64,000 nucleotides of DNA from Amoebophrya sp. A120 (GCA_905178155.1 CAJINV010000003.1:2681740-2745739); one strand, 5' to 3'. Shown: positions 33,801 to 59,671, counted from the stretch's first letter. Numbers and translations are program-made. Notes: generated from the letters alone by a model not told the origin.

Positions 33801-36800
33801 CGAGGAACCGCTGCGTGTCCGCTCCGGTGCAGTAGTGGCACAGCAGCGGCGTTTCCGTCTCCACCGCGTCGGAGCAGTCGATGGCCAATCTCGGCGCCGC
33901 GGCCAGGCGCATGGTGCGCCGCTTCGCGCTGAAGTACACCTCCAAGGGCCTCCACGATTTGTTTCTCTTCACCGCGTTCGAGCCTCCTCGGGCCGTTGCG
34001 GGCCGGTAGCTGTCGCACGCGAGGTACCACTCGGCCTCCTTGGACGCCTCGTGCGCCAGCGTCTGCGGGTTGGTCAACATCAGGTCGTGCAGGCCGTCAA
34101 CATCCTCGGAAAAGTGGACCCGCGGGGTTTGCCCCGACGGGCCGAGCAGGTGGGCGATACACTCCTCCACGCGGATGCCGTAGCGGTCGCAGAGCTTGTG
34201 CACACGAAAATTTGCCATCCGCTTCAGTTCCCGGCCGGTCAGGCGGGCGATGTAGTTCAGCTCTCCAAAGTACCGAATGACGGGGTCGTGTTGTTCCAAG
34301 TGGAACCCCTTTGCAGCGTCGATGCTGGCGGCGGAGCCGGATTCCGAGCCCACGTCCATCAGGGCGCCTATCGTCATCTGGCGCACCCCGGTTGCTACCT
34401 TTCCGCCGCAAAGCTTTTGGAAAAACCGCCCCAACGCGGTTTTTGCCGGAGGTATGATTTTTACAGGTACTATCTTTTTCTCTACAACTTCGGTATTGTT
34501 GACAGCTATCGCGACGTCCGCCGCAGGGACAGACGGCGAAGTAGGCGGCTGCGCGTCTACTGCTGCCGCGCCCGGATTATTGGTATGGGACGCTGCGGGG
34601 GAGTCGTCTTCTTCCCGGTCCACCGTTATGCCCGTTGTTTTCGACGCCGCGCCATCGTTGCCCAGAGCTGGCTCCGCGTCTGGCTCGGCGTTCATGATGA
34701 GCCCGATATCATTCGGGTTTGCGGAGTCGTTCGCAGTAGGTGACGCGGCAGCAGAGGACGTCGATGCGCGCGGATCCTGCCCTGTTTCAAGAACAATGTT
34801 AGGGTCGTGCTGGTCGGCCAGGGTTGATGCCGAGTACTCTCGCGGAGTGGCCGCATTTGGAACCGGCTCGTGTATGATGGCGGCCCCCGCCGCGTGGGGA
34901 TCTTCCCCCCCCAGCGCGCCGTGCAGCGCGCCAAGACCTTCTCGGTGTGTCTGCTTTTTCTCCGCGTGCCACTCGGCCATACTTCGGTGCTCCGGCACCC
35001 CGCCCCGCGAGTTAAGCAGCAGGCCGCTTTGCCGAGTCACGTGGCGGCTTACCTTCCGCGCCAACGCGGCCTTCATCTCCTTATCGGAGTATTTGTACTC
35101 CATTTCCAGCGCAACGCGCGGGTTGTACTGTCTCTTTGTCAGCTTCTCCATGCCATCCACTGTAGAGTACTGATCTTGGGATTCGCGCGCCGTCATCTCT
35201 CGCTCGTCGCCGGATATCAACTGTAAAAATGTCTGGGTCTGGAAGAATCCAACTTGTCATGCTGATTTTGGATTCTAAAAAAATCTGTATTGCATGAGCA
35301 GCAAAGGGAACGCAATTTTTGCTACGCGGAGAGGGCATTTGTCATGCGGAATAGGCATCGCGAGGCCCTCAAAAAATCTGTGATGCTAGGGCATGCATCA
35401 CAGACATCATGGCCAATGCAAAACATGCATGACAAGTCTCAGAATCTTCCAGACCCAGACATTTTTACATTTGATACCGGAACTGACGTCGCCATTTGTA
35501 GTCGCGGTCGCACTGGAGGAAGCCGAAGCAGCTGCGCCAGTCGAAGGACCATTAACACCAGCGGCAGTGCCCGCAGCACTTGTGAGGTTTTCTGTGCTGG
35601 CAGATGAGCTGCCCGCGGGGCTGCGAAGCTCCGGTTTGCTTTTCGTTTTCTCTCCTGTAAAATCTTTCGGGTTCGAGACCAGCAAGGTGTCCAGGGCCTC
35701 GATCATCTCGATGTTTTGGATGTCCTTGACGTGCTTTCCCAGGTAGACCACGTTGCCAAGCACCTTTTGCATGATGACCAGGGGCACTCCCGTGGAGGTG
35801 AACAGCTGCACCTTGATCGCCGTCTCGGGGTGGACGTCGCGCAGCCCCGTGACGGGCACGCCGGAGACGTCGTCGAAGTGAAAGCGCTGCATGAGCATCT
35901 GGTCCTCCAGCTTCTCCAGGGGCGACTGGCACTTCACCAAAAAGATCTTGTTCGCGTCCGGAAACTCGCGGACCCGCTCCATCTGCGTGCGCTGCATCTT
36001 TTTCGAGTCGTTCACGGCCATCGCCCGAATCTCTTCGTCCTGCATCAAGGACAGGGAGGCGACCGTCCCTTGCCGCTTGATCAGCTGCATGGCGCTCTCC
36101 TTCTCCGGGTCAATGCTGGCGCTCGACCGGGAGAACGCCGACGTCATCGACCGTCCCGCCAGCCCGCCCCGCTGCATCTGGGGGCCGCCCTGCCGCACCA
36201 AGTCGTTGCCGTCGCCACGCAGCCGGCTCAGCGCCGTGGAGCCCTTGTTCGCCGCGGGACCGCGGCTGTGCGTGCCCTCGAAGAAGAAACTTTTTTTGTT
36301 CCTCGAACTTTGCCTCTGCGGGGGTGGGCCGCTGTGTTCTCCTTCCTCGAGGAGCGCGCCGCTGCTGATGCCTTTCCCGATCAGCTTCATTCCGGGTCGG
36401 TTATTTCCTTGTTGTCCACCTCCGCCCCCGCGGGCGTTCAGCAGCGCGTTCTCGGTCTCAGGCGTGAGCCGGATCCCGCCAATGCACAGGTCCGGCTTGA
36501 ATTTCGGGGACAGCGAGCCGTCGGAGTTGAGGACGAACATTTGGTTGGCATACCGGTGGTGGTAAAACACCTGGATCTCCGTGCCGACCTGGAACTTCTC
36601 GGCGTCGCGGTAGAAGGGGCGCGAGCTCCGGCCCGCGGAGTAACACGCGTTTTCGTGCAAAATGTACTCCTCCCAGGTGTGGAACATGCGCACCTCCACG
36701 GCGAGGTTGGGGTCCTGGACCAGGCGAATGAAGAGACCGTCGTAGTAGACTTCCAGCGCGTCCTCGGCCGGGCACATTTCCAGAAACCGCTCGCGGCCAA

Positions 36801-37948
36801 TGTTGCTACCGCGCCGGATGCCGCTGGTGCTGTTGGTAAACTCGCCGTTGCTGATCGCCGCGAGCGAAATCGCCTCGGGCGGCGCCAGCCTCAAACCCAG
36901 GCCCGGATGCGATCCCAGCGTCAATTTACGAACCTGTCAACAAGTGGGATGAAATCGAAATCGTGAGGCGTAGGATAAACATAAACGTAAAAGAACAAAT
37001 ACAAATATCTTAAATATTTGTATTTGTTCTCTTTGACGAGGTGCATCTATATATTTGTACCTTTGACGAGGTGCATCTATATAATATATAGATGCACCTC
37101 GTCATAGAAAGTACTAGTAGCTCGTCTACAACCAGTACCAGACGTAGTGGTTTTTGCGAGGTGCTAGAAGTTATTTGCGCATTTGGTTACCAGATCACCC
37201 GCGAGCGACGTCGGGTGGAGGACTGGGCGAAATTCATATGGAATGCGAATGTCATGCCGACGCACTCAAGAAAACCTGAAAAGTGCAATAATCTTTTTTG
37301 TCTTGTCTACGGTACCTGTAGAGAGCTTGGCACTCTCGGCGGCGCCCGAAAGTGTATTCCCGGCGGTGCGAGGGGGTTTCGGAAACAGGAATCCTCTTCT
37401 TCCTTCGGCATGTCGTCCTTCTTCGTCGATCCCTTCCCGCGAGCGGAGAGCGCGACTGAGGGGCCGGTGTGGACGAGGTTACTCGCGTTCGGGTCGCGCG
37501 CAATGCGGGCGGCGTACTTGTGGGGCATGTTCTTCCAGCCCGCCTCCGGGCGTTTCGAGACGTCGGTGGAGGAGAAATGCAGGGTGCTCGCCCGCCTCAT
37601 CACGTGTTTGTCTGCCGGACTGATACTGTCATCAATCACCTGCTTCTGTTCTTCGTCTTTCGCTGCTGCCAGAAATTCCGGGTGGAACCGTCGACTGTCA
37701 ATCGGGCGGCCGAGAGAATCCAAAATCTGCGGGTGTGCAGCCGGTGGGCTGCCGGGCGGCGAAGCGGGTGATGCAGCTTGTTGGTTATTATTATCGCTGG
37801 GCGTCCGCGCACTCAACAAGTTGTCTGAGCGCACCGTCATCTCACCCGCCCCGTAGCTGCTGCGCACCGGGGACGACATCCCTTGGTCGTGGAATTCGTC
37901 CGGAATCGGCTCCCCAACGGGTACAGGTGCAGTCGCGTCGGCAGACAT
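30802..37948 (-). CDS. Large multi-exon protein with degenerate ricin-B (beta-trefoil)-like repeats
   Basis: NQMFVLNSDGSLSPKFKPDLCIG, TQRFLVNPDGTVSPIYRRDLCWG, YCWTLHPNRVITPQSVPEFCLG; ORFs are joined by removal of 4 introners and GT-AG introns. Confidence 0.65.
31031..31293. mobile_element. Introner, family A
   Basis: Family A TIRs; perfect TSD acttc; removal gives ATLK-YFDFEC. Confidence 0.92.
31359..31668. mobile_element. Introner, family G
   Basis: tatcaagaagacaaatcccccctccccatat ... atatggggaggggggatttttccatttgata; TSD tggtg. Confidence 0.88.
33436..33699. mobile_element. Introner, family A
   Basis: tatccattgcaaatatgtctgg ... ccagacaaatttgcaatgcata; TSD aacgg/aatgg. Confidence 0.88.
35215..35476. 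mobile_element. Introner, family A, inverted relative to the copies at 19863, 42900, 45272 and 49223
   Basis: Family A TIRs; perfect TSD ccgga; interior matches the reverse complement of 49223-49488. Confidence 0.92.
36992..37104. repeat. Two adjacent perfect palindromes (17-bp and 20-bp arms) plus a direct duplication, inside a GT-AG intron
   Basis: agaacaaatacaaatat/atatttgtatttgttct at 36992-37030; tgacgaggtgcatctatata-a-tatatagatgcacctcgtca at 37064-37104. Confidence 0.9.
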
Positions 37949-39827: not shown

Positions 39828-42800
39828 TCACTGCTTCCGGGCCCGCTTCGCGGGACGCCGGTCCTCTTCCTCGGAGGAGGACTCGGAGGAGTCGGATTCC
39901 TGCGAGTTTTCCTCCGATTGCGATTCGTCATCGTCTGAGGAGGACGAAGAATTTGAGGATTCGTCGTCGGATGATTCCGAGGACTCGTTTCCCTTGTTCT
40001 TCTTCACCGCCGCCTGTTTATGTTTATCGCCACCTGCCTGCTTTGATGCCTTGGCAGCATTTGCATTGCGCGACGGACTTTGACGTTTATTGCTGTCCTT
40101 CTGCTTGTTGTTTTCGACACGACGACTTGCAGCTTGATCCACATTGTTCTTCCCGGAGCGTTTATTGATTGCGGCATTCTTGTTCGTGCCGGCCGGCGCG
40201 CCACTTGAAGTAGTAGAGCTGTTCTTCGAAGTAGGCTTGGCACTGGTCGTGCCGGCGGCGCGCTTGGCGTTAGCGGCCCGGTCTTTGATGTTCTCGTCCT
40301 TCTTCGCAGTTGTAGATCGGTTGTTCTCCTCGCGGCCGCGCCGGGGCTGGTTGGTCTTCCGCGGCGGAGGCTGCGCATCTTCGTTGGAATCACTAGACTT
40401 CGAGTCGTCGTCGTCCGAAGAGTCATCGTCATCTTCCTCACTGGAGCTGTCCGACTTGGAAGCCCGTTTTTTCTTTGCCTGCTGCTGGTCTGCACGCTTG
40501 TTGTTCGTGGCTATTCGACTGCTGCTCTCCTTGGCGGCTCCTTCACCCGCTCGCGGCCGCGCGGATAGTTGTGCCACCGTAGGTCGGGGCGCCGGTCTCT
40601 TCAAGGTCACTCCCCCAGAGGTGGTCGCAGTAGTACCACCTCCCGACTTGTTGATGTTCCGCGACGAATCATTTTGATGTCCACCTCGTCCCCGAAGGTT
40701 GTTGTCCGGAGGCGACGCGCCGTTCCGCCGGAAGTTGACGGCAAAGTTGGCACCGCGGCTATCCTGAGTAAAAACGTACCCACACCATAGTCAAGATGGT
40801 GAATCGGCTAGACAAATCCACAAGCTTTGGCTGTTTTGCATGACAAATTTGGATTCGTAGTGTAGTGCTGTTTGAGCTATCTCAGCAGCATCACAGATGT
40901 AGCATACCATGCTGATTGGAGCATGACAAATTGCAAAACACGACTAGAAAATGCTTCTCATGGGGCTCCGCATGAGAGACATTTTCAGCATGCAGATTTG
41001 CATTACAACTCTATTGTGGGTACGTTTTTACTCAGGATAGCGGCCGCGAGCGCGCGGCGGCTTTTGCTCCTCCTCCGAGGGGGTGTCGTCGGATCCGGAG
41101 GAGTTGGACTCATCGTCACTTATGACAGTGCACAACTCCCCCTCCCCCTCATTTGTATTGCATGAACAGCAATACAAGCGTCAGCAAGAATACAGATTTT
41201 GCATGTCAAATTTGGACAGGAGTGTAGTGCTATTTGGACTGCCAGAACTTGTCATGCAAACAGTGCCAAATAAAGGCACTTTGCATGAGAAATGAGGGGG
41301 AGGGGGGGTTGTGCACTTTCATATCACTTGAACTCGATGGCGAATCCGACCCGGAGCTTGAGGACGCTGACCGCCGGCCCGTCCCACGAGGGCGATGATC
41401 TCCTCCTCGCGCATGATGCTTCTTGGTCGCATTATTTGTTCCCCTCACCTGCTGGTTGCGGGAAGTTGTGGACAAGTGTAGATGTTGACCCTGCTTCGAA
41501 GTAGCACTGGCCCCGTTGTTGTGCGTGTTCCCCCGGTCGCGCAGTGCGTTTTTGGCACTCTTTTCGTGACCGCGGAGGTCCCCCGTGCTGTCGTGGTCCT
41601 GGCGGGGCAAAAGCTCCACGATCCTGCTGCTCTTGTTGTTATCGCGGCCACCACGGCCACGCGGAGATCGGCGGTCGTTCGAGGACCGACGCTTTTGCAC
41701 CACCGACGCACCCCGATGGTCGTTGTCGCGGCCGTAGGACGCAGCACGACGCGAACGGCGGTCCGCGTTGCGGTCATTCTCGTCGTGGTACTGATCGTGT
41801 TGCCAATTTTCGTCAATGTCCTGGTAGGAAAACTCGTTGCCCTTGCCCGTGGTACCACCGTGTTTGTTGTATTTCCCGTACGCGGCGCCCTTGCCGCCTT
41901 TGTCGAAAAACGAGGACCCGTTCTTGTCTCCGCGACCACCGCTTTCGTGCAGTAATTCCCTGCCGCCCTTTCCGAACTTTCCGCCCTTGCCCCCCTCGCC
42001 GAACTTTCCGCCCTTGCCGCGGCAGGTATGGAAGCGTCAGGTCGGAAATGGGCATCAGAATGGGAAAAAAACTTATATGTTTATGCATAGTTGCAGGCAA
42101 CAAAAACAACCACAATGGGAGATTCTAAGACTGAATAGGCTTTTGCTCGAGATTGAATGCCCAGGTGCCCTCTGTAAAATTTAATGTCACGTGCCGCATA
42201 GTACTAGAAATTGAAGTTGCGGAAGATCCAATGGGTACTGTCGATTGTATTTGAGCCAGCGCATCACAATTCTTTTCCACTTCGTGTCGATTTCTCAAGT
42301 CGCTGACACTTCCATACTAGGCGTTGGTCGCGTTGTAGGCCGATCCTCGGCCGCCCTCCATTGCCTGCCGCTCGTCCCGCGACAGCCGCTTCGTGAAAAA
42401 GTCACTGCCCGAATCATCGTCCGACGAGTTGTACATGCTCTTACGCGGCGCACGCTTGGCGCCGCGACCGCGGACCCGCATCTTTCCGTCGTCTTCCGCG
42501 CCCCCCTCGTAATTCTGCCCTTGCCGCGCACGGTAGTTCGTGCCGCCGGCGGGCGTGGACCCACTCTCGCGGCGGTCCTTGTCCTTTTTGTTCGGAATAG
42601 TTGTATCAGCGGCTGCTTGCTCATCATGGTCCTGCTGGTGGTCCTTCATGTCCTCCGCTACCACAGAGTCGCTGTGGTCCTTCCGGGTCGTGGTCCCCGA
42701 GTTTTTATCGCGATCGTCCTCGTCGGCCTGCTTAGTTTTGTTGTTCACACTATCCTTCTCGTCCTCCTCTTGCTCTTTCAAACTCCCGCGGTGGTAGTCG

Positions 42801-43258
42801 TCGACCAACAGCTGGGAGACCTTCACCTCCGGCGGAAGTTCCTCGTTCAGCTTCTTTTTGCCCTTGGTGGGTCGCGCGGTATAGTTCTGCACCCCGACCT
42901 ATCAAGTGCAAAAGTGTCTGGGTCTGGAAGAGTGGAAGATTTGTCATGCAGGTTTTCCATGGCCCATGAGGTCTGTAATGCATGGTCTAGCATCACAGAT
43001 TTTAAGAGGGCTTCCTGATGCCTGTTCCGCATGAGAAATACCCTCTCGCCGTGGCAAAAACTGGACTCCTCTTGCTGGTCATGCATTACAGATTTTTTTT
43101 GAATCCGAAGACAGCATCACAAGTTACAACCTTCCAGACCCAGACATTTTTGCATTTGATACGACCGTGCACTCCCACGTCCAGTGGCCCGCCTTGTTGC
43201 AGTTCTGGCACCGCGCGTTCGGCACGTACGTGCCTTGCCGGGAGAGTGGCTTGTCCAT
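39828..43258 (-). CDS. ZCCHC10: ZCCHC10-like CCHC zinc knuckle protein with long G/K/R- and S/D/E-rich low-complexity tail
   Basis: First exon RCQNCNKAGHWTWEC followed by YTARPT after introner removal; Ser/acidic C-terminus; four introners. Confidence 0.7.
40760..41039. mobile_element. Introner, family E
   Basis: tatcctgagtaaaaacgtacccaca ... tgtgggtacgtttttactcaggata; TSD gcggc. Confidence 0.92.
41121..41323. mobile_element. Introner, family F
   Basis: tatgacagtgcacaactccccctccccctcattt ... aaatgagggggagggggggttgtgcactttcata; TSD tcact. Confidence 0.9.
42027..42316. mobile_element. Degenerate introner, family H
   Basis: tatggaagcgtcag ... ctgacacttccata; diverged TSD gcagg/ctagg; removal of 295 nt rejoins two long ORFs in frame. 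Confidence 0.75.
42900..43161. mobile_element. Introner, family A
   Basis: Family A TIRs; perfect TSD cgacc. Confidence 0.92.
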
Positions 43259-44539
43259 CGAATAAAGGACTCCGCAGTTAATTCAAATTATGATCTACTC
43301 GACGGACGCACGCCGAGGAAGCCGACGTGGATGCTGAATAAGTACCACCGTCGTATTGATCGATAGACCAACCTCCAGCGAAGTAGTAGAAGATGTTGAA
43401 ATCGATGAAGAAGTGGATGGTTGCGTGGTCCTCGTCCTCAGCCACACAGATAATTCCTGCGAGTGATTCAACTCCTTTTCCGCTTCTTGTTGGGTGGAAA
43501 ACGGAGATATTCAAGCTAACTACTATACCAATAATACACAACCACGCCACTACTTCGAGTTCGATTGTTTTCTTCACGACCTCAAGTCGCTTGATGGGAC
43601 ATTCAACTAACAACCACCAGGACGAGCAACCCTAGATGTATGATGGAGTCAATTGAAAGAATTCCTCCTGTGGGTCGCTTCGCGATCGCATATGTAGAAA
43701 TTCCGTGCTGTAATCTTCGGGTTAATGGAAACCATTACCCTTTATCATATTATCAGGCATACTAGTTAAATAGCCAGCAAAATCTCCACTGGATTGGAAA
43801 TTTCGCATGAAGTAAGAATAGAAACAACAAATTTGATAAATCCTTGTTCTCTCTTTGTCCTGCAGCGTTATGTTGGGAATTGACTTGAATCTAACGAGTA
43901 ATTTCAATTTCAATTTGCGATGCTTGATACTTACTCGATTTGTCTTTTTGTCCGTGTCCTATTTGAAGATCTCCTTGATGGCGTACTACTTTGTCATTTT
44001 CCTCTATCGACATACAACATACAAAGGGAAAGGCAGGGGCATCGAGGAATGTTATCGTCGCATGCGGGGATGATCCTCCTAGCACTTAAACCTCCATTTT
44101 TGAATCATGTTGTTCTGGTAATTTCAGGATCATCTTCGTGCAAAGTGTGGATTTGTGTGATCGATTCTGCACGAGGTGTCAGTGACTGATTCATTTTGTG
44201 TCGTGCAGCCGGAACTATTTTTGCACATAGGTTGAGATCTTCTTAAATTGGACTTACTGTGGTCGTGGTTATCTTCAGAGTCCTCTCAACATAGTCCCCA
44301 AAACATCCGATCTGGAACAGAGATTCTAATCCGCAGCAGTCTTCCTCTTCGGTAAAAAAATTTAGGAAGAGTCCACCGTCACTGTAGGAATACAGTACGG
44401 GCACGACGGCGCCGGTGCAATTCGTCATCGTTTCAGAAGGGCTACAGCTACTCGTACTCGAACATGAAGAGACTTTTTCAACATTAAATGTTGACCATCA
44501 TAAACACTCGTGACGCGGCAGCGAATCGATTTCAGGACC

Positions 44540-47500
44540 TCAGCACCCAAGATATGCAAGTGCTTCGTTGAGTTCTTTTTCCGTGGCCACCTTCTCTTTC
44601 TCCTCTGCGCTCAGTTCGCTTTTCTCCTTCAGCTTTTCGATTTGCGTCAACTTCTTCTTCAAAGCTTTGGCTTTCTTCTGTTTCTGCTCGTCATCATGGA
44701 TCGCCATCACCTCCTCAAGCAACGGTTTCTTATTCGGGAGGACTTCGGCCGCAGTAACAGAAGCCTGCTCGGGCACTTGCTGTTCTTTCTGTTTTTCGTT
44801 TGTTCGCGAAGATGGAGAGAACTCAGCTTCCGCTGGTGGCTGCTGTGTCTGCTTTGGTTCCTTCTTGGCCTTTGGTTTGTTTTTTGCGGCAGCTTTAGTA
44901 CCACTAGGCCCTCCGCCGGCGGGCTCGATTTTTACGTTCCGCAAATGAGGCGGCACATATGCTTTTTTCATGTGTTCCGGCACGCCGTTGGAAGTAGACA
45001 AACCCTTGCCAGCCGTTTCATCCCCCAGCTTCTTCGCGGCAATAATCACAGCTTCTGGAAAAACAACGCTGGTGAGATCGGTCATGTCCGTTTTTTTCCA
45101 GTCACTTCCGGTGACACAATCTGCGAAGGTTATGCCATACAGCTGGTCGTCGGCTTCGAGCGGCTTTACGGCACCCGTAGACACATCAGCCGTGGCAGCG
45201 GTGGAGCTACCACTGTCAAGTGTCAACCCTCCCGCGAAGTCGTACAAGCGAAATGAGCATTCGGAGCGAATTATCAAATGTAAAAATGTCTGGGTCTGGA
45301 ACATTGCTGGGTTTGTCATGCATATTTTGCATGAGTCCTCGTGTCGGTGATGCATGCCCTAGCATCACAGATTTTTTGAGGGCTTCTTGATGCCTACTCC
45401 ACATGACAAATGCCGTCGCCGCGTAGCAAAAATCACACTCCTTTTGCTGGTCATGCAATACAGATTTTTCTAGATTCCAAAGACAGCATCACAAGTTCCA
45501 ACCTTCCAGACCCAGACATATTTGCAATGCATACGAATGCGTGGAGCCAGCGTGCTGCACAGAACGGAGAGTCCGAAACGGTGTATGGCGTTCTCAAACG
45601 TTACATTCTCAACTTTTACATGAATTTGTCATGCAAGAGCACCTTAAGCCGGCAGATGATCGAGCTGCTTCGCATCACAAATTTCGGGAGGGCTAGACAG
45701 CATGTAAATCTGCGCCAAACTTGTAATGCAAAAGGCGCCATCTTCCCCCCTTCACTTTTGCCAGTCTTGCATTACAAATTCATGGAACAATTGAGAATGT
45801 AACGTTTGAGAACGCCATACGGTCATACTCGATGTTTGTGCAGCGGTTGAAGTTGGCCGTGCGAATGCTCTATGCATTGCAAAAGGAAAAATATCGCTAC
45901 CGGAATCGGGCTAGCACTAACAGGAACAATCGCATAAACAAGTGTTTTGAAGAAAAACCATCCAACAAGGCGGGGCGGGGGCAACGTCATGCAAATTCAA
46001 GTAAGAAAGCAGATGCAGTAGATCCATCTGATTCTGATCCCATGCGCGACTGCCATTCTTTCTAAGAGTTAAAGTAGGACACCACCAGCACGATATTTAT
46101 ACTTTTGCACAGGATATTTTCGAGAACTGGGGTGGCTTTTTCGTGCCATGGTTCGCGTTGTGGTAAAAGTCCAGGTCCCCGGCGAGATTCCCCAGCCCAG
46201 CAAGGACGAAGTGATCCCCGGATGGCGACCACGCGATGTGGTTCCGGCGCAGGGACTTGTCAGGCACGATCTGCTGCAGGGTTTTCGACGGGTTGGCCCC
46301 GGAAATTAACGACAGCGAACAAGGCAAGGTACGCCCCTCGAGCACCAGAAACTCGTTTCGCCGCGGATTCCACGCGGCGGTTTGGATTTCCCCGAGATTC
46401 ACGGGCCCACTACTTGTTTCGGAGCAAGACAAGTGAAAGAGCGTCGTGGCGCCGTAGTAGCTGTTTTAATTTTACTATGCAAGTTCTTGCTATTGCTACT
46501 GCTCCTTTTCAGTCTTTGTCATATCGTACTTGCTTACGCACCAGTGGCACATTGTTGATGCTCCCAGCAATCCTTACACTTTCAGTGTACCTGTAGAAAA
46601 TCTGAGTCGTGGTGGAAGTAACTTCTTTAAACTTCCAGTCGTACTACATAGATCATAAGTACCTTGTCTCGCAATCCAGTGAGTCGCCCTTGGTGTAATC
46701 TTGCCCACTGAATACCAACACCGCTGCTGGGAGCTTGCTCATGTTCCAGCGAAGCAATACGGATGAGGCATTGTAGAAGGATTTTGAGCTCACGGGGCGC
46801 TGCAGCGCGGCATTTGTGTCTGCGGTCAGCTCGAACAAGCTTACCTTACCCGGTTGGGCCTTCGCCTCAGGGACGAACGCCGCGACAAAGAAACGCGACT
46901 GCTGGTCCGCGGCTGGGCTTTCGCCACCCTCTTCCTCTAGAAGGGACCGGATTGTCGCTGCTGTGGCCGGAAGCAAATGGGAACCGGGGCTGGAAAAGTT
47001 GTTTTTGGATACGTAGAAGGGACAGGCGTCGCTTTGGGTCGAGGCGGTGCAGCCGAGCACGCCGTTCGATATTTCGAATTGCGATATGTTCGGAAGCGCC
47101 AGCTTTTTTCGATTCAGGTCGGACTGGAAGGCTTGGCTGACCTCTTCCCCGGTTGGAAGCCCGGAGGCTGCGCCAGCGTCACCTACGATGAAAGTGGATT
47201 CGCGAACAGTTTTCTGTTTAACGAAGACCTAGACCGACGGGGATGGGTGAGCGTGAGCCATCTGGTGGATTGCATGCATGATTGAGATTGACTAGAAGTA
47301 GGTTGCTTGATGTGTAAAAATCATAAAAAAACTACGCTACGTGGTCGTGGGGGAGCGAAAAAGAGAAGAACCCCAGGAGAACTTGTACCTGTAGTGCGTT
47401 TCTTCCAAAACGTCTTGCAGAGAGTTAGGGATCGCAAGTCCACTACATTGAGGCCGTTCCCGACGGCACGACAGCAGAACTCCTCGCCGGCCGAGAGTTT

Positions 47501-49019: not shown

Positions 49020-50065
49020 TTAGGCATCCTGCTTCACTTCCCCGCAGTCTTCTATGACAACTTTCTTGCTGGGCCGTCCACCATTGTCGCCGCACGCTTC
49101 CATCTGCTTCACGATGTCGAAGCCATCGACAACCTCGCCGAAGACACAATGAGCCCCGTCCAGGTGCGGCGTAGGGACGGTGGTGATGAAAAACTGGGAT
49201 CCATTTGTGTTTGGGCCCGCGTTATCAAATGCAAAAATGTCTGGGTCTGGAAGATTCTAAGACTTGTCATGCATGGTTTGCATGCGCCATCCATGATGTC
49301 TGTGATGCATGCCCTAGCATCACAGGTTTTTTGAGGGATTCTTGATGCCTATTCCGCATGACAAATGCCCTCTCCGCGTAGCAAAAATTAGAATCCTTTT
49401 GCTGCTCATGCAACACAAATTTTTGAGACATCCAAGTGCAGCATCACAAGTTCCAATCTTCCAGACCCAGACATTTTTACATTTGATACGCGTTCGCCAT
49501 TGACAGAAGGCCTGGCTTCGTGTGCTTCAACTTGAAATTCTCATCCCGAAATTTCATCCCGTAAATGCTCTCACCGCCTGAAATGTCAGAAACAAGGCGC
49601 TACTACGAGCTTTTCGAAATTAAAATTCAAACACAACAGGGCGAAATAAAGTAGACGTCGCAAGGGTAACAAATCTAAGTAGCTTGTTCCATCATGACAT
49701 AGACATACGACAGAAGATGACGAAGATAAGACCAGATTTTTTACACCACAAAGTCAGATATTAATCGAAAGAACAATATATTATCAGTCGTGCTACTTAC
49801 ATGCACATATGTTCATACCGGTTCCATTTCCACGAGTGAAGTCGCCGCCTTGACACATGAAATTAGGAATGATGCGATGAAATTTCGACCCCTTGAAGTG
49901 TAGCGGTTTCCCGCTCTTGCCCATGCCCTTGTCGCCGATACAGAGAGATCGGAAATTCTCCGCTGTCTTTGGCACTGTGTCCGCAAACAGTTCGAACAAA
50001 ATGCGCCCCGCCTTGGATCCACCAATGGAGACATCGAAAAAAACTTGCGGGTTGGCTGCAGCCTG
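49020..50065 (-). CDS. Cyclophilin-type peptidyl-prolyl cis-trans isomerase; first exon not located
   Basis: [65 protein letters not shown]. Confidence 0.95.
49223..49488. mobile_element. Introner, family A, in cyclophilin
   Basis: ~34-bp TIR; perfect TSD cgcgt; interrupts the conserved [13 protein letters not shown] motif. Confidence 0.95.
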
Positions 50066-50282
50066 TTTGAAAAAACGACTGTGGAACAACATTGTATCGA
50101 CTGCGGACAACTCCGATTGCGGAAAATGAAACACGACCAAGAATCAACTGATAAGGTGGAACCTACTTAAACTTATGTTGGCTATGACCAGATCAATTCA
50201 AGCGCCTGGGCAACGAGGATCACATCAGAGACACAAACAATTAGCAGTGAGAGGGGGAGCTGAAATCGCTGCGGGCCTGATC

Positions 50283-51708: not shown

Positions 51709-53024
51709 AATTAGCAGTGAGAGGAGGAACTGAAATCGCTGCGGGCCTGATCATCTTCATGCAGACGATGGAACTACAGGAATGGGACGGCAAGGAGCTG
51801 CTTGTTTGTCAAAGGCAAGCCCGCGGAAAAAAAAAGAACCGTCTCGGTCTCTTCGGATCTCGTCATAAATAAATCATAGTAGTTTTGTTTTGTTGCCGAG
51901 GAGTGGGAAAGGGGATGAAGGCAGCAAAAACAAAAAGAAAAGTCAGAACAAGTGATCGGGAAAATCGGGGGCACGAGCTTTCGACACAGACACGGGCATC
52001 CTGCTTGGTTCCAGATCAACGTCTACGTTTTTATACATTTTCGATTTGCAGTTCTTTGTTCAATCCAGTTCGAAGAACGGCAGTTCATGCCGTGAGGAAC
52101 AAGTTGTGCCTCAAATTCGCAATTCATCGTCCGCTCGGATACGGAACGAGCAAGGCTTGTGAACACTGTTAATATTGTCGTCAACCGTTCCTGTTTTTCT
52201 TTCGATTTCGGGCGTCCTTCACGATCACGCCAAGAACCTTGTTGGAATATCTTAAAATTCAATATGCGTTTCTTTTGCGGTATTGGCGTAATGTTCGACA
52301 TGTTCTGCCATAGACCTCTTGAAATAAGTACAATGCAGAATTGATGTGAGAACTGAACATTGGACATTTTCGGGCCTCGGAAAATTGATGCCATGCCCAG
52401 GCATGGAAAGAAAGAAAGTACAATGCAGCGCTAGCTTCTAATCAAATCTTCCTATGAAATACAACGAAAACATTTTACAAGAATATAACGAGGCGCCTCG
52501 CTTTCTGCGTACAAACACTTTATTATATGGCTATCGAAAGAGTAAATATGTCGCGCTGCGTCGTGACGGCACAATCTAATACAAGAGTAGGAACGTGCGT
52601 ATTCTATGTGGATTCGTTTTTCCGGTTGCAAAAGTGAACCGATGACGAGGCAGAGTCGGTCCTGTCCCAGGCCCTTCACCTTCTTATCTATTAGCTTCAG
52701 TTGTACATCAAAACCCTTTGTGTACTAGTACAGCTCCCCCTTCATTCGGTGAAGAAATTCGAATGGTAAATTGTAATTCGCTTTCGCAGGTCGCTGCCTC
52801 TGCTGAAATAGTCTGCCGTCGGCGCTCAGCATGTCTTTTCATCTTCAAGGAGTCACCGAAGTGTGTGTGAATTCGAAAAGACATAGAGCGCGATGGCATA
52901 CGCATATCCGAGAGAAGAAGCAACACGTATAATAATGCCTTTTTTAGGTTTCTTTTGGTAGCTATCGATTCCTACTTGATAGAAGCCGTGGAGTTTATTC
53001 TTTGGTAGTTAGTAAGTACGATAT

Positions 53025-55331
53025 CTACTGCAGAGTGCAAGCTGAGCGGTTATGGTTGCGCAGCGCCTCTAGCTCCAGTGAAAGCTGCAACACGCGGTCT
53101 CGCCAGATACTCGTCGCATTTTCGCTGTTTGTGGTCTCAGGATCAAGTTGTAGATCTTCGGTGCGGATTCTTCGTGTCGTTGAGCATGAAGGTGATTTGT
53201 TTCGCTTGTTTGAGACTCGAGAGTCTTGTATTTGTTGTCGAAGTTGTAAATGCTCACTGTCAGAATCAGAAATCTCGTGGTCCCTCTCCGTGGAAAGAAA
53301 CATATACGGCGGGGGTTCATGTTGAGGCTCTGGTTTCAAATGCGAATTCTGTGCAAGAACGACGCGCTCCCGAATAAGAGCAAAGCGGTCCCATTCCAGT
53401 TGTGCAACCCGAAAGGCGTGTACGCAGTCGTGTGTGTCGCGACGCCGGCTCGCCGACTCCGCGTCGCGCCAACGCCGCCGCGCCTGTTCCCCAGCGGGGC
53501 TCGCGCACCACAGGGCTTTTCTCAAAGCTTGTCGGTCCACAGCGGACAGAAGCCGTTGCGGTTCTTTGGTTACCTCCGCTTCTGCGTCGTCCAGCTGCTC
53601 ATTGGAAGCAGGGCCACCAGAGCAAGGTTCGTGGCTCATTCTTTGATCTCTCGCACACAAGAAGATGAATTTGTCTTTTTTCCTTTTCTTGCACCTCCGA
53701 TTGCAAAAAGCACCACGGCCGAGCCGCAAGAAAGTTGGTGCTTCAGCGAACAAATCGCTCCAGGTTGTTCTCAGCGTTCCCTGATCATGTGACGATAGGC
53801 AACAACCGCGAGAGGAGCAACAGGTGTCGTGCTGGCGTTCTTCCGTCCGTGGGCTGGGAGTTGCATCGTCGAGATTATCGCACAGCATGCCTTCTTGCGG
53901 CGGAAGTTGCAGTGAATCAAACACGACGACAGCACGTGGTGATGCTCCTTCTCCTTCGGGGACTGGGTCGCTGATACTCGGGAAATATTTTATTTCGGGC
54001 ATGTAATAGGTGGGGATGGGCGAGTGCGTTGGGGTCGCTCCCGTCAAGTCCATGTAGTTCAGATCGCTGCCAAAAGACGAGGAGGTCCCAATGCTGCTCA
54101 TGCCAGAGCCCACGCCTGTGCTAATATCGTCTTCAGGGCAAGTGGGCGGCGAAGTAGGTGAAGATGCGTCTGAAGATGCCAACTGGGGCGGCGCGTGGGT
54201 TGCAGAGACAAGAAGTCGCTTGTTACTACTCTTCATGCTCCGATCTTCTCGATGGTTGTTCCCTGAGAGATGAATATGGGATGACGGCAAACAACTCGGG
54301 GCGGGCTGCGAATCGGATCCCCCTCCGGCCGATCTGTCCTTGCGGCAACGAATACCGGGTGAGAAAATTCGGTTCTCGACGTGCTGGTCACCTACTTTGG
54401 CGAGAGATGGCTCATCTGCAGCTGTACTGCCCTCCATGACGGTGATCTTCGGGGTAGGGAGGGCAAGTCCAGGATTGAGATCCGCCTCGGCAGTAACGGC
54501 GTTTGTGCTTTCCACGCCGTGGTCCTCGGTACTAGCGTACGACGCGCTCCTGGAGATTTCTTGGGCAAGAATAGCACGAGAACTGCTTTCGACTCCTCGG
54601 AGGTTTTGGTTTATCTTTTCGAAATAGTGCCACTCGTGTTGCGCAACCGCGAGATCCGAAGCCGCGGCGTCGACCTGGGCGGTGTAGTATTTCTGGAGGA
54701 GATTCAAGGCCGATGCAGAGCTCACCATGCGCCAGGAGGCGAAGCTTCCGCTCAGGGGATTCGCGAAGAGCGAGCCCGCATCGAGTCCCGTTTCGTGCAA
54801 CAGAAGGCGCAGCAAGCACAGGAGGGCGGCCTCGTCCCCGACCAAGACTTTCCCCTCGTCATCCTCGATCTCCTCAGGAAGGAGCGTATCTCTCGTAGAC
54901 CTATCTGCCGGTAAACATTTTTTTCGTACTGGGATCTTAATAATACGATCAGCTGGTGCACCTGCATGTACTCGTACCGCCGTTGCAGAACATGTGGCTC
55001 CTCCACGGGAAAGAAATGATGACAAAAGTAGCGCACCAACCGTGAGCACAAGGTAGTACGGTAGAAGTGCACTCAGCAGGCCGCGGCGCTGCGTGCGGCG
55101 AGCCGATGTATCTGCGCTGCAGCTGCCTGGGGAGATGCTGAGTAGTATGTTGGAGGTCCATGATGAAATTTGTGAAACATAACCCGGACCACGACCACAG
55201 GTGCCATCAGGAAAGAACTTCTGGCGCTGTCGACTTTTCGTTTTGGCATTGTCTCTCCCGGAGGCGATAAAGCCACTTCTTTTTTGTCGTGTAACAGCAA
55301 AGACGCTACACATTTTGATAATCAGCTCCAT
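53025..55331 (-). CDS. Hypothetical 768-aa protein with N-terminal hydrophobic segment and C-terminal coiled coil
   Basis: Long uninterrupted ORF on the same strand as its neighbours; no recognised domain. Confidence 0.55.
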   Translation of the reverse strand: MELIIKMCSVFAVTRQKRSGFIASGRDNAKTKSRQRQKFFPDGTCGRGPGYVSQISSWTSNILLSISPGSCSADTSARRTQRRGLLSALLPYYLVLTVGALLLSSFLSRGGATCSATAVRVHAGAPADRIIKIPVRKKCLPADRSTRDTLLPEEIEDDEGKVLVGDEAALLCLLRLLLHETGLDAGSLFANPLSGSFASWRMVSSASALNLLQKYYTAQVDAAASDLAVAQHEWHYFEKINQNLRGVESSSRAILAQEISRSASYASTEDHGVESTNAVTAEADLNPGLALPTPKITVMEGSTAADEPSLAKVGDQHVENRIFSPGIRCRKDRSAGGGSDSQPAPSCLPSSHIHLSGNNHREDRSMKSSNKRLLVSATHAPPQLASSDASSPTSPPTCPEDDISTGVGSGMSSIGTSSSFGSDLNYMDLTGATPTHSPIPTYYMPEIKYFPSISDPVPEGEGASPRAVVVFDSLQLPPQEGMLCDNLDDATPSPRTEERQHDTCCSSRGCCLSSHDQGTLRTTWSDLFAEAPTFLRLGRGAFCNRRCKKRKKDKFIFLCARDQRMSHEPCSGGPASNEQLDDAEAEVTKEPQRLLSAVDRQALRKALWCASPAGEQARRRWRDAESASRRRDTHDCVHAFRVAQLEWDRFALIRERVVLAQNSHLKPEPQHEPPPYMFLSTERDHEISDSDSEHLQLRQQIQDSRVSNKRNKSPSCSTTRRIRTEDLQLDPETTNSENATSIWRDRVLQLSLELEALRNHNRSACTLQ

Positions 55332-56294
55332 GCATTCTCATTCCCGGTACAGGCAGTGGGAGAATTTCATCAGGAAAAAGGGATAATTTTAGGTCGTTTC
55401 ATCTGTCGAGATCGAGTACAAAGAACATACAGATTGCGGTCGTGAAAAAATTAATAATTGCGTTTTAGCAGACAAAAAAATAACGCTGATGCAAGGGACG
55501 ACTCTAAAAGTGTTGCATGGATCAATGTGATATCTCATTTGATGATTTCATGGTAACTGTGGTAAAAACTACGTAGGTATATCCAAAAGAGTGAAGATCT
55601 GTATCTCTGCATGAGGTCGCTGTTGTAAGAAGGCGGAAAAATAAAGCAAAACAGGTGGACCAAACGACAGACGCCTTGGCTCTGACATTAAACGAAGAGT
55701 TTGATCCTTGCCATGGGTTGCCTTCTTGCTAAAAAACATGACAAAGAAGCGAACCGCGTCTGATTCACATTGTCGTCCGATGGACCACAGGAGAGGCTCC
55801 GCGGAAGGACTCCAAAAAAGAGATCATTTGAATCATTTTCATGCCTGGGATTCGAGCGCGGGTGCGCCCAAGCGAGGTACAAAAGAGACCTAACTCATTT
55901 TCATGTGCGCAGAACCGCGTCCTGTTTTTTTTTCATGGTCGCGTTTGATGTCAAAACTTGTTAGACAAGCCGCAACAACACCTGGAGAGGTTCGCTCTTT
56001 AAGAACGGTGCATCCAGACGCCGTTGTTAAGTACTTAACTTCGACTTCCGAAATGAAGCATCTTCCTCTTGTTGGGCAAAGTTGCCACTTGCGAAATTAT
56101 CGCCAGACAGTACTAGTTGGCTCGACGTAATAAAAAGAACCGCACTGTACAGCGTTTGTAGACATCGTTCGTACGCAACACTGAAACAAGTGCGATCATC
56201 TGTCTCTGGATAATGTCATTCCACCGAAGCAAGAAGTGTTCAACGCGCGCGTGACCACGACAGTCCGTCTAGACAGGACAATCCATTGAGTTCT

Positions 56295-59200
56295 TTAAGC
56301 CTTCGCTTTTGCTTTTGCCGCTTTTTCCAGCTTCTTTCGCTCCGCCTTGGAAAGCTCCTTTTCTCCGCACACCTCTTTCAGGCGCTTCATTTCCGCGACC
56401 GCTGCCTGAATTTCCTCATCGGAGGCCTTGTCTGCTTTCAATTTTGCGACGAGGTCCTTCGCCGCCTGCAGCTTCGCGAGGTCCTCCGGAGAAGCCTGTG
56501 GCTGCGCTGCAGCCGGGTCCGCCGCTGGGGCTGCCGCAGCGGCCGCTTCCTTGCCCTTTGCGCCCTGCAACTTGCTTGGATCAACTTTGCCCGCGATGTT
56601 GCTCATTGCCTTTGACTTCCCGTCCGGAATTTTAATGAGAACCTGAGAATGAAGATCATCGTCATATCGATCAACATGCCAGGATCGTCAATAAGACCTC
56701 ACCAAACACATGCTTCAATCAAGAAGTAGCAGATGAGGTGGACTTTGTCAACGTCTACGCTACCATCTACAACTAGTAAATCCTTTCAAAACAAATCAAC
56801 ATGACAGAACTATATTACCATGGGTTGTCCCTCCGGAAAGGCCGGAGAGTCACAGATAAAGAACCCGATGCGCTCAAGCTGGACAATGTCGCCCTTGCTC
56901 ACGTTTTTCAAGGGGGCTTCGCCGACTGCTACGGTGTCGAAAATGGTTTGTGGGTTGATAAAATCTTCGAATTTGTCGTCCTCGTCCAGTTTTGCTTTTG
57001 AGATCAAATGGTCGTATTCCCGCAGAACCACCTCCGTTTCGCGGCCCGTGGCGGCGACCCAGTGCAGCTTTTTCTTTGTGTCCTTCACGCTTCCTGTTAA
57101 TAGATGACGAGGTCAGTTGCTTCGGATTTGAATTTGATACGGATGGAAGGAAGTAGCAGCAGCGCCAGCGGCCACGAGACGGACTACACTCGCTGGCACC
57201 ACACTAACTTTAACTCACAGACGTGAGGAACTACACGAATACTAAAAACAGCAACAAGGCTACTAGTACTTGAGCACCATCATTTCAATTGCATATACCT
57301 TCCAAGTGCAGCTTGGCTTCGAGCAGGGTGACTTTGCCAGCCGCGTCCTTCGTAACCTTTTCGACAAGGACATTTCCCCAGTGTAATAACGTAATCTGTT
57401 CCTGTTCCGCGATCTCCGCGGCGTCGGCCGCCTCTAGAAAGACCGAGGCACCGTACCAAAGCGGCTTCTGGCCGGACAGCACGCCCTCCTGGCCACACTT
57501 GGGGTGCAGGTTGGTCATGCCCACGTAGGACTCGGCGGGCACACCGGAAATCTTCAACGTCACCGGGGCGGTGATGGCCGCGTACCGGGCCGCCTGCGGG
57601 TCGATGATCTGGCGGTTGAGCACCCAGATCTTGTCCCACTCCATCAGCACGTCCCGCTTGCTGGCCCCCTGCGTCTTCATGAACTCCTGCAGCGCCTGCA
57701 CGGTCATCCCCCGACGGAGGATGCCCTTCACCGTGGGGAACCGGGGGTCGTCCCACCCCGAAACCACCTTGTTGTCCACGAACCAAGTCAGCTTCCGCTT
57801 GGACAACACCGTGTGCGTGAACTGCGTCTTGGAGAACTCGTACAAAATGGTCTTGCCCACGTTCGCCTTCTGTTGCACCCAGTAGTACATCTGGTCCCGG
57901 TCCTTGTACTCGATGGTCCGCAGGGAGTGCGACACACCCTCTATCGCGTCCACAATCGGACACGCAAAGTCGTAGGTTGGGTAAGCCTTGTACTTCGTGC
58001 CGTGCCTAGGGAGAGTGAAAAGCAATAGAATTATTATGTCGTTGAAAATGAATACACAAACTTAAATCTAGGATCGTATAGTCGATTTAGTTGGCCTTGA
58101 ATTGGGGGTCGTCTCTTCTCATCTAAAAATGGAGAAAGTGAATAAAGAAATTGATGATTATGTGCTACGTATAGATACAATCTTCGTTGTGTGGAGGCAG
58201 CAGCTCCTGTGACGCAAGGGCAAGAATCGAATTCGAAAGGATCGAAAAAAATAAAACCCAGCACGGGTTACTAGTGTCACTTACCTGTGATGGGGCACGT
58301 CGGTTTTGCAGCGGTAGAAGACGGGGTCGCGGAGGCACTTGACTGGGTCCTTCATGTTCATTTTTCCGCGGACACAGCAGGTCAGGCCGGTCTTGGTCCC
58401 GGCGAGCATTTCCTTCCAAAGCTCTAAATTTTTCTCGACGCTGAACTTCCGGCATGCGCTTTCGACGCCGTTGTCACGCTCGTCGCGCATCTTCTCGACG
58501 GGAGTGTCGTCTACGTACGCGTCACCGTTCTTCAGCAACTTCTCCATCAGTTCCTGCAGCTTGGGAAAGTAGTCCGAGGTGTGACTCACGAAGTCCGGAA
58601 CGATGCCCAGGCTCTTGCTATCCTCCAAGATCGTGTCTTCGAACTCTTGCTTTTCCTGGTGTTGAGATAAATCAGACATCGCATACTCTCTTTTTCTATT
58701 CTATCTTCTTTCTTATCCTTTCTCATGGAAAAGAAAACCAATGCATGTTCATGGTGGGTCGCGGCGATGAAAGAATCAAACTCTGAAGCGGAGTTAGATC
58801 ATTCCGGGCGGACCAGAACAAAAACAAACTCGACGTTGTAGACTACTTACCTTGCTGGGGTTCGTATCGTCGAATCGGATGATGAGCTTTCCCTCATACA
58901 TGCGCGCATAAGCGTTATTCAGCAGCGCGGCCTTAGCGTGGCCGATGTGCATGTAACCACTGGGCTCGGGGGGGAATCGCGTGCACACTTTGCCCATGAC
59001 AGCGTTCGGCAACTTGCCTTCAATATTTGCTTCGTCCTTCCCCTTAGCACCGCCGCCGGTAGATGATGAGGCATTGTTTTTGTTGTTCATCTGCGCCGCG
59101 GCCCCTGGTTTGTTTCCGCCTTGCGGTTTACTATTTCCGGACGAGGTGGTACTGGTACTGAAGGCGAAAGGCCGCTGCCGCTGAAGTGCGTGGATGTGGA

Positions 59201-59671
59201 GTGCCCAGCGGTAGGTGGAGGGCAATTTCTGCATATCTGGGATCTTACCGTTCAACTTGGCCAAACAATCCAGATCGGCAGGCGAAAAATCCGCACCGTT
59301 CTCCACGTACGAGCGGTCCTTGATAAACTTTTCGAAATCCGTATCCTGAGTAAAAACGTCCTCACCCCATAGTTGTAATGCTAATCCGTATGCTGATAAT
59401 GTTTCTCATGCGCAGCCCCATGAGAAGCATCTTCTAGCCATGTTTCGGAATTTGTCATGCTCCAACAAGCATGATATGCTAGATCTGTGATGCTGCTGGA
59501 CCAGCTAAACAGCATTACACTTCGAGGCAAAACTTGTAATGCACAACAACCAAAGCTGGCTGATTTGTCTAGCAGATTGCCCATCTTGACTCTGGGGTGG
59601 GGACGTTTTTCTTTAGGATAATCCGGCGTACCGGGATTACCGACCGGAGGTCCACTCGCGGCTGCCGTCAT
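56295..59671 (-). CDS. GluRS: Cytosolic glutamyl-tRNA synthetase with N-terminal GST-C-like and C-terminal WHEP-like extensions
   Basis: [21 protein letters not shown] (HIGH), [46 protein letters not shown]. Confidence 0.95.
59342..59620. mobile_element. Introner, family E, in GluRS; inverted relative to the copy at 40760
   Basis: tatcctgagtaaaaacgtcc ... ggacgtttttctttaggata; TSD atccg; removal gives [14 protein letters not shown]. Confidence 0.92.

What the first reader, a model, noticed from the sequence alone, without database searches (positions are those of the whole stretch)
35215..59620. The same introner acts as an intron in either orientation
Seen: all host genes are on the minus strand. 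Family A copy 35215-35476 is the reverse complement of the copies at 42900, 45272 and 49223: its right end gcaaaacatgcatgacaagtctcagaatcttccagaccc matches their left end. Family E copy 40760-41039 is the reverse complement of 59342-59620. In both orientations removal restores the frame, including in GluRS. Inference: excision cannot rely on a polarised donor/branch point/acceptor carried by the element. It is more likely defined by the symmetric TIR stem or a symmetric protein-binding code, implying structure-guided or non-standard splicing.
Basis: partly seen in the sequence, partly recalled or inferred. Interest (0 to 1): 0.85.

Follow-up and report, generated by a model that had tools for sequence, protein, structure and literature searches.

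The report
Reversible hairpin introns with fixed cuts
In the marine parasite Amoebophrya, copies of the same hairpin-ended mobile element sit in genes in both directions and are missing from RNA assemblies either way; their mirror-image ends look the same in both directions, and the cuts likely fall at one fixed distance from the hairpin, a testable clue to how these already known odd introns are removed.

Summary
Observation confirmed. The window is Amoebophrya sp. A120, and the elements are its published introners (PMC7789003). Copy 35215 is the reverse complement of five family-A copies, and 40760 of 59342. RNA contigs lack element plus 5 nt at 9 of 9 element joints shown, including 35215, 40760, 42900 and 49223. 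For 59342 the skip is shown by length and depth arithmetic. Either-orientation introners are already reported in Polarella and Aureococcus (bioRxiv 2020.10.14.339549). What I did not find in print: seven imperfect target duplications all fit one asymmetric register, N+TAT...ATA+NNNN. This puts the element's TA at intron +2/+3, like the GTA of every canonical donor here, with no AG rule at the 3' end. Best reading (inferred): a relaxed spliceosome takes its donor from the inverted repeat and measures the acceptor from the stem. This scan noted similar AG-less hairpin introns in other dinoflagellate genomes (unchecked).

The parts
35215..35476 (-). Family A introner, flipped relative to the other five; 262 nt, perfect 5-bp duplication; intron at the inferred register 35211-35477
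   Evidence: RNA joint 35209>35477 in X3
42900..43161 (-). Family A introner, common orientation; the only element with a possible GT..AG reading (register 4)
   Evidence: RNA joint 42894>43162 in X3 and X6
45272..45533 (-). Family A introner in an eIF2A-like gene
   Evidence: contigs of X3, X5, X6 keep 435 of 1396 nt between 45266 and 46663, as predicted; P0001 reproduced exactly
49223..49488 (-). Family A introner in a cyclophilin gene
   Evidence: RNA joint 49217>49489 in X3, X5, X6 and not in DNA run X1; Pfam PF00160
33436..33699 (-). Older family A copy with an imperfect duplication; register limited to 0-2
   Evidence: RNA joint 33430>33700 in X3, X6
19863..20612 (-). Family A copy carrying a nested 474-nt insert; annotated as a 755-nt intron
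40760..41039 (-). Family E introner, 280 nt
   Evidence: RNA joint 40754>41040 in X3, X6
59342..59620 (-). Family E introner, opposite orientation, after codon 16 of glutamyl-tRNA synthetase
42027..42316 (-). Introner with a twice-mismatched duplication; RNA joint is unique and gives register 1 (intron 42023-42317, GT..TG)
   Evidence: joint 42022>42318, no ambiguity, X3 and X6
19553..19713 (-). Introner with a twice-mismatched duplication; annotated protein fits register 1 only, but the A25 orthologue has the residue of registers 2-5
45871..46116 (-). Introner, duplication 3/5; annotated protein fits registers 0-1; lies whole in a DNA contig
3157..3389 (-). Family F introner in a dolichol-phosphate mannosyltransferase gene; registers 0-1 (predicted before the look-up)
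11106..11342 (-). Introner, duplication 4/5; registers 0-2
45584..45819 (-). Family F introner; registers 0-4
12439..12681 (-). Family F introner; mismatch is synonymous, uninformative
11555..11713 (-). Introner; mismatch is synonymous, uninformative
13260..13399 (-). Introner, 140 nt, annotated intron 145 nt
17598..18125 (-). Introner related to 20670, carrying a nested 307-nt insert; annotated intron 533 nt
18667..18921 (-). Introner with family-A-type ends and an interior like 31031; annotated intron 260 nt
20670..20877 (-). Introner, annotated intron 213 nt
28299..28463 (-). Introner, perfect duplication; splicing not tested
31031..31293 (-). Introner with family-A-type ends
   Evidence: RNA joint 31025>31294 in X3, X6
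31359..31668 (-). Introner, 310 nt
   Evidence: RNA joint 31352>31668 in X3, X6
41121..41323 (-). Introner, 203 nt
   Evidence: RNA joint 41115>41324 in X3, X6

Best explanation
These are non-autonomous inverted-repeat DNA elements of Amoebophrya A120 that sit in exons in both orientations and are missing from RNA contigs together with one copy of their 5-bp duplication; they are likely removed by a relaxed spliceosome that reads only the ends, which flipping leaves almost unchanged. Step 1 (anatomy shown, transposase inferred): insertion makes a 5-bp duplication around TAT...ATA ends. Step 2 (shown at RNA-contig level): element plus 5 nt is removed exactly in both orientations. Step 3 (shown at 2 RNA joints, supported by 5 annotated proteins): the intron is the last base of the upstream duplication, the element, and the first four bases of the downstream duplication. 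Step 4 (inferred): the 5' repeat supplies U+2 and A+3 of a donor whose G+1 is dispensable. Step 5 (inferred): the long end-to-end stem brings the 3' end to the active site, and the acceptor is set four bases past the stem with no AG. Orientation independence follows from end symmetry; it rules out interior strand-specific signals, not polarised end signals.
For: 9 of 9 element joints among the 15 joints shown equal element+5. Nine of 24 duplications are imperfect and 7 are informative. Their allowed registers are {1}, {0-2} (RNA), {1}, {0-1}, {0-1}, {0-2}, {0-4} (annotated proteins); only register 1 fits all. The chance of all seven readings under independent uniform registers is 6e-4. The site at 3157 was predicted before the look-up and held: the annotated protein and the A25 orthologue read Q, and 51 of 64 matched homologues read QQ. 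At register 1, +2 is T and +3 is A in 24 of 24 elements; canonical donors of the window are GTA in 20 of 20, with A not required by the filter and one of the 20 a doubtful model. At -2/-1 AG occurs in 1 of 24. Opposite copies share 30/30 and 28/30 terminal bases. A terminal stem is predicted in both orientations for the 22 elements folded: 15-25 of the first 25 nt pair with the far end. The two arms match less at element positions 4-8 (83/120) than at 9-13 (108/120), p=9e-5, a post hoc comparison; this fits a stem base that can open. In both duplications where the +1 base differs from its exonic twin, the intron has G. A120 keeps nearly all spliceosomal proteins and U2, U4, U5, U6 but no detected U1 snRNA (PMC7789003 section 10).
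Against: No lariat, branch point or factor dependence was tested, so 'spliceosome' rests on the TA/GTA coincidence. TA at the element start was a search criterion, so only its placement at +2/+3 (1 of 6 registers) is independent. G+1 is not significantly enriched (10 of 24, p=0.15). No branch-like motif stands out (YTRAY in 5/24 elements, 4/24 flipped, 3/20 canonical). The flipped copies have perfect duplications, so their register cannot be read. At 19553 the A25 orthologue has V, the residue that registers 2-5 give, while the A120 annotation has L. Five of seven register sites rest on gene models built from transcript alignments, which may share data with the RNA runs. PMC7789003 calls splice sites variable relative to the hairpin (Fig. 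3 legend; Fig. S23 legend, 1-5 nt). Four elements fold no better than shuffles or only weakly (z -2.1 to +0.5 as transcribed) yet are spliced or annotated as introns. A stable stem over +2..+6 would have to open for U6 pairing (established knowledge, recalled).
Confidence: 0.6

Rival explanations
1. A spliceosome-independent nuclease and ligase recognise the stem base and cut 1 nt before and 4 nt after it, as discussed for euglenid nonconventional introns. The TA/GTA match would be coincidence, or a relic of the transposase target.
For: No AG rule, no G+1 rule and no branch motif; long stems in both orientations; U1 snRNA not detected. A fixed staggered register is what a structure-measuring nuclease would give. 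Euglenid introns yield full-length circles, not lariats (PMC11282704 section 6).
Against: The register places TA on the only invariant canonical donor bases after G. Both +1 changes go to G. Several weakly folding elements are still removed. No such enzyme was sought or found.
Confidence: 0.22
2. An RNA-binding protein code, the octamer TGT[ACG]ATGC and its reverse complement, marks the intron symmetrically and recruits the machinery; the stem is incidental.
For: 69 hits in 6,502 nt of elements against 2 in 57,498 nt outside, shared by otherwise unrelated families, often at about +33 to +49 and -33 to -45, pointing inward.
Against: 11106, 19553 and 41121 have few or no exact copies yet are spliced or annotated as introns. 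Inward-facing subterminal repeats are typical transposase-binding DNA sites (recalled), which explains them without a role in RNA.
Confidence: 0.08
3. The skips are reverse-transcriptase template switches across a hairpin flanked by direct repeats, and the mRNA retains the elements.
For: Direct repeats plus secondary structure are the known recipe (PMC4176328 passages). The evidence is contigs, not direct RNA reads. RNA contigs holding element sequence from other loci exist (tables 3 and 7).
Against: A switch at the stem base would keep the downstream repeat copy (register 5); the two informative RNA joints give {1} and {0-2}, and 42022>42318 has no homology at the joint. Retention truncates GluRS, cyclophilin and other ORFs. 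Single contigs skip elements and canonical introns alike with no mismatches (table 8).
Confidence: 0.03
4. The elements are excised from DNA in some cells or stages, or the RNA comes from insertion-free alleles.
For: The DNA control was laid only on 44400-60200, so 35215 and 40760 have none; contigs drop rare forms.
Against: DNA run X1 runs from flank into the elements at 45272, 49223 and 59342, spans 45871 whole, and shows no 49217>49489 joint. The long RNA contigs across the elements have no mismatches to the window.
Confidence: 0.02
5. Each copy uses cryptic or recruited GT-AG sites, as in Polarella and Aureococcus introners.
For: 42900 can be read as GT..AG at register 4. PMC7789003 reports that 15% of A120 canonical introns have the same repeat layout.
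Against: 8 of 9 RNA joints and 23 of 24 elements have no GT..AG reading in any register.
Confidence: 0.02

Closest known systems
Introner elements (IEs) / non-canonical introns of Amoebophrya sp. A120 (Farhat et al. 2021, PMC7789003; I read sections 10, 11, 12, 16, 25, term passages, and supplement parts 2 and 3; figures not held)
   Same: Same organism (window proteins 99-100% identical to A120 records). Inverted repeats start TAT, then 7 variable bases, then As. Short direct repeats at the junctions, hairpin, non-GT-AG ends, about 240 nt. Hairpin-assisted alternative splicing already proposed.
   Different: I saw no statement on element orientation in the passages and supplement hits read. 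The paper calls splice-site position variable relative to the hairpin; here imperfect duplications point to one register.
Either-orientation introner-like elements of Polarella glacialis (classes 1, 2, 3, 6, 7, 8, 10) and Aureococcus anophagefferens (bioRxiv 10.1101/2020.10.14.339549, passages; the Aureococcus paper itself not seen)
   Same: TIR/TSD elements that create introns in both orientations, with a bias toward one; splice positions fixed relative to element and duplication, one site partly recruited from the duplication.
   Different: Those carry or recruit GT/GC/GA donors and AG acceptors, so target sequence is constrained; here +1 is any base and no AG is needed.
Euglenid nonconventional introns (PMC11282704 section 6; PMC6221363 passages)
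   Same: Non-canonical ends joined by a stem, TSD-like repeats, probable MITE origin, mechanism unresolved.
   Different: There the conserved pairing is +4..+6 with -8..-6; here +2 pairs with -5, one base further offset, with TA at +2/+3. Circular products are reported there and untested here.
Fritillaria borealis TIR introners (PMC11282704 section 6; bioRxiv 10.1101/2025.08.15.670264 passages)
   Same: MITE-derived introns whose non-canonical ends are the inverted repeats, removed by an adapted U2-type spliceosome.
   Different: Ends are mostly AG-AC/AG-AT, a specific pattern; the Amoebophrya 3' end is taken from arbitrary duplicated exon sequence.

Membership tests
Amoebophrya A120 introner elements (PMC7789003) | Host genome is A120 | tested here: met
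   P0001, P0004, P0006 named Amoebophrya sp. A120, 99-100% identical to window exons
Amoebophrya A120 introner elements (PMC7789003) | Inverted repeat starting TAT, 7 variable nt, then As | tested here: met
   TAT in 22 of 24 5' ends, ATA in 24 of 24 3' ends, A at element positions 11-13 in 18, 20 and 22 of 24
Amoebophrya A120 introner elements (PMC7789003) | 3-5 nt direct repeats overlapping the junctions | tested here: met
   5-nt duplication, perfect in 15 of 24, 3/5 or 4/5 in 9
Amoebophrya A120 introner elements (PMC7789003) | Repeated, non-GT-AG, removed from RNA | tested here: met
   families; 9 RNA joints, 8 without a canonical reading
Either-orientation canonical introners (Polarella, Aureococcus) | Introns made in both orientations | tested here: met
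   families A (5:1) and E (1:1)
Either-orientation canonical introners (Polarella, Aureococcus) | G-starting donor and AG acceptor carried or recruited | tested here: not met
   GT..AG possible in 1 of 24
U2-type spliceosomal intron | Donor U+2 and, in this genome, A+3 | tested here: met
   24 of 24 at register 1; canonical 20 of 20; partly built into the search
U2-type spliceosomal intron | G+1 and terminal AG | tested here: not met
   G+1 in 10 of 24, AG in 1 of 24
U2-type spliceosomal intron | Branch-point motif | tested here: inconclusive
   no clear motif in elements or in canonical introns
U2-type spliceosomal intron | Lariat product and snRNP dependence | not testable with these tools
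   only contigs cover the genes; raw-read runs had no exon cover
Euglenid nonconventional intron | Stem joins both ends | tested here: met
   predicted folds, both orientations
Euglenid nonconventional intron | Pairing of +4..+6 with -8..-6 | tested here: not met
   here +2 pairs with -5
Euglenid nonconventional intron | Released as full-length circles | not testable with these tools
   no excised-intron data
Curated structured RNAs in Rfam (group I/II introns and others) | Match at gathering score | tested here: not met
   0 matches among 4227 families over the window
MITE (non-autonomous TIR DNA transposon) | Cognate autonomous transposase | not tested
   no whole genome held; PMC7789003 reports none in A120

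The most novel reading that the evidence does not exclude
About 30,000 A120 introns are removed by a dedicated, spliceosome-independent hairpin-measuring nuclease-ligase that cuts 1 nt before and 4 nt after the stem whatever the flanking sequence or element orientation. Any TAT-ended transposon would then be a harmless intron at any exonic site.
Probability: 0.2. Interest if true: 0.9.

Novelty: already known. Interest (0 to 1): 0.42.

Why it matters
The system is published and either-orientation introners are known elsewhere, so the headline is not new. How Amoebophrya removes more than 60% of its introns without GT-AG or a detected U1 snRNA is still open. A single register turns 'variable splice sites' into a defined substrate: N-U-A at the donor, the acceptor four bases past the stem. 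It can be checked genome-wide from public data by using imperfect duplications, would correct intron boundaries for tens of thousands of gene models, and names the bases to mutate or probe for lariats. If it holds, it shows a splicing route with no sequence demand on the target site, which would explain how these elements flooded coding exons.

Tried and rejected
No whole genome was held, so no genome-wide sense/antisense count was possible. Raw-read RNA runs X10 and X11 laid 147 and 8 reads, nearly all on repeat ends, with no exon cover: uninformative on splicing efficiency. In one search, 15 of 44 joints were shown: 9 element, 3 canonical, and 3 short-sided joints inside or between elements (31148>31258, 31157>43133, 40799>40920), which I set aside as other genomic copies. 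In one search the DNA run filled 13 of the 15 joint rows shown (34 not shown) with cross-copy joints, so 59342, 45272, 45584 and 45871 could be judged only from contig lengths and depths. Table S4 of PMC7789003 lists nine top A120 motifs, all with T at +2 (20% of introns together), and nine A25 motifs, all TT. I give it little weight: the genes were aligned with BLAT, and I recall that BLAT slides ambiguous joints toward partial GT/AG or CT/AC matches, which also favour T at +2. Two imperfect duplications (11555, 12439) are synonymous and were dropped from the register count. Branch-motif scan: no signal. G+1 enrichment: not significant. The GluRS representative search returned only a 98% variant starting downstream of the element. 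The Aureococcus paper was not held. Literature searches for orientation or register in Amoebophrya found no such report. Figures 3, S19-S25 and supplement parts 1, 4 and 5 were not seen in full and may bear on the register. Look-ups of this scan by place and by sequence returned nothing.
Full report
Identity. Three window exons matched named proteins of Amoebophrya sp. A120 at 99-100%. The repeats match the introner elements described for that strain: inverted repeats beginning TAT, seven variable bases, then As, with short direct repeats at the junctions (PMC7789003 section 11). I found 24 such elements. Two scans gave most; one came from an RNA joint, one from protein mapping and one from the self-comparison. 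The census may be incomplete. All have a 5-bp duplication, perfect in 15 and imperfect in 9.

Observation. With the ends stripped, 35215 matches 42900, 45272 and 49223 at 82-86% only as reverse complement, and 40760 matches 59342 at 83% only as reverse complement (alignments). Family A is 5:1, E 1:1, F 3:0. Hosts are on the minus strand.

RNA. Runs X3, X5 and X6 (one study, two samples) are labelled RNA by guess, but their contigs skip canonical introns, so they behave as RNA. Of 15 joints shown (44 listed), nine are element joints and each removes element plus 5 nt. They include the flipped copy 35215 (X3 only, in a 6,220-nt contig with no mismatches) and 42900, 49223 and 40760. For 59342 the joint row was crowded out. 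However, X6 record 24 is 2,895 nt at depth 40.5, and the bin depths 18.7 and 15 match 18.7 and 14.9 predicted if 284 nt are skipped, against 33.4 and 0 if kept. For 45272, 45584 and 45871 together, three runs keep 435 of 1,396 nt, the predicted figure. Retention would truncate the ORFs. So both orientations are removed; efficiency could not be measured, as the raw-read runs had no exon cover.

It fails on logic and on precedent. As transcribed, 35215 and 49223 share 30 of the first 30 and 28 of the last 30 bases; the E pair shares 23 and 27. A polarised donor in the 5' repeat and a polarised signal in the 3' repeat are therefore present both ways. Polarella and Aureococcus introners create introns in either orientation with ordinary splice sites (bioRxiv 2020.10.14.339549 passages), and a 2022 survey allowed for opposite-orientation insertions in its method (PMC9860276 passages). 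What flipping does exclude is a strand-specific interior signal or ribozyme fold; Rfam gives no match. The non-canonical part is real: 8 of 9 RNA joints and 23 of 24 elements have no GT..AG reading.

The register. A perfect duplication hides the cut among six or more positions; an imperfect one reveals it. Let k be the number of upstream-duplication bases inside the intron. RNA gives k=1 exactly at 42027 and k=0-2 at 33436. Annotated proteins give k=1 at 19553, 0-1 at 45871, 0-2 at 11106 and 0-4 at 45584. I then predicted Q rather than E at 3157; the annotated protein, the A25 orthologue and 51 of 64 matched homologues have Q. Two further sites are synonymous and were dropped. Only k=1 fits all seven (6e-4 under independent uniform registers). 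Against: the A25 orthologue has V at 19553, the k>=2 reading. Five sites rest on transcript-based gene models. The flipped copies have perfect duplications and cannot be read. The paper calls the sites variable, which duplication ambiguity could explain. The register also argues against template switching, which would keep the downstream copy (k=5; background in PMC4176328 passages).

Mechanism. At k=1 the intron begins N-T-A. All 20 canonical donors collected here begin G-T-A (one model doubtful), with no conservation beyond. TA was a search criterion, but its landing on +2/+3 was not. G+1 occurs in 10 of 24 (p=0.15) and terminal AG in 1 of 24. In the two duplications mismatched at both terminal positions, both intron ends are G. 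The ends are predicted to pair in both orientations, and the arms match least at element positions 4-8. A120 keeps nearly all spliceosomal proteins and U2, U4, U5 and U6 but no detected U1 snRNA. I therefore favour (0.6, inferred) a relaxed spliceosome that takes U+2/A+3 from the 5' repeat and places the acceptor four bases past the stem. In standard spliceosomes the first and last G of the intron pair with each other (recalled), so losing both demands together is coherent. The main rival (0.22) is a spliceosome-independent nuclease-ligase, as discussed for euglenid introns. The octamer TGT[ACG]ATGC is a real symmetric code (69 hits inside elements, 2 outside), but some removed elements lack it, and it more likely serves a transposase.

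Novelty. The elements, their non-canonical ends and the hairpin idea are published; either-orientation introners are published for other species. In nine searches and in the passages and supplement parts of PMC7789003 that I read I found no statement of orientation independence or of a fixed register for Amoebophrya. The figures were not visible, and the Aureococcus paper was not held. PMC12130899 (passages) and PMC8469720 (passages) added no orientation data for this case. Notes of this scan describe similar AG-less hairpin introns in other dinoflagellate genomes (unchecked).

Verdict. Real and already known as a system. The fixed asymmetric register is a modest addition that makes an open mechanistic question directly testable. 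Interest 0.42.

Noticed in passing
window 19923-20396 (inside 19863-20612) and 17648-17954 (inside 17598-18125): Two unrelated introners each carry a nested insert flanked by a 14-nt duplication of a similar TGCA-N5-TGCAT site. The inserts share a 96-nt block at 97% and the same 22-nt end, and removing them gives 262 and 207 nt, the family lengths. Possibly a second element that targets introners as safe sites; both host elements are still annotated as single introns.
   Followed up: partly
all elements: Octamer TGT[ACG]ATGC and its reverse complement: 69 hits in 6,502 nt of elements against 2 in the other 57,498 nt, shared across families, often facing inward 33-49 nt from each end.
   Followed up: partly
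42027-42316, 19553-19713, 3157-3389: Where duplication copies differ at intron-terminal positions the intron base tends to be G: 2 of 2 at +1, and 3 of 5 at -1 (the other two are C). Too few to test.
   Followed up: partly
window 49440-49488 and 35483, run X10: 147 raw RNA reads lay only on family A ends, run on into foreign flanks (one near a run of A), and no exon of the region is covered. Perhaps a related strain sharing family A, with one copy retained near a transcript end.
   Followed up: no
window 58440-59046: X3 and X5 contigs at depth about 6 differ from the window at 4-7 positions in GluRS, and a 98% identical protein exists. The paper lists two GluRS genes in A120, so a paralogue or another allele is possible.
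   Followed up: no
window 14636-17527: A 2,892-nt canonical intron filled with direct and inverted repeats, including four exact 26-nt copies spaced 809-959 nt.
   Followed up: no
window 1000-2900 and 63576-64000: An array of 52-nt repeats with 53/90-nt spacing, and a tandem array of short units at the window end.
   Followed up: no
window about 37030-37110, inside canonical intron 36934-37315: A long near-perfect palindrome with a partial duplicate, seen by eye.
   Followed up: no
window 53025-55337: An apparently intronless 770-aa minus-strand ORF, covered in part by X6 contigs; no function sought.
   Followed up: no
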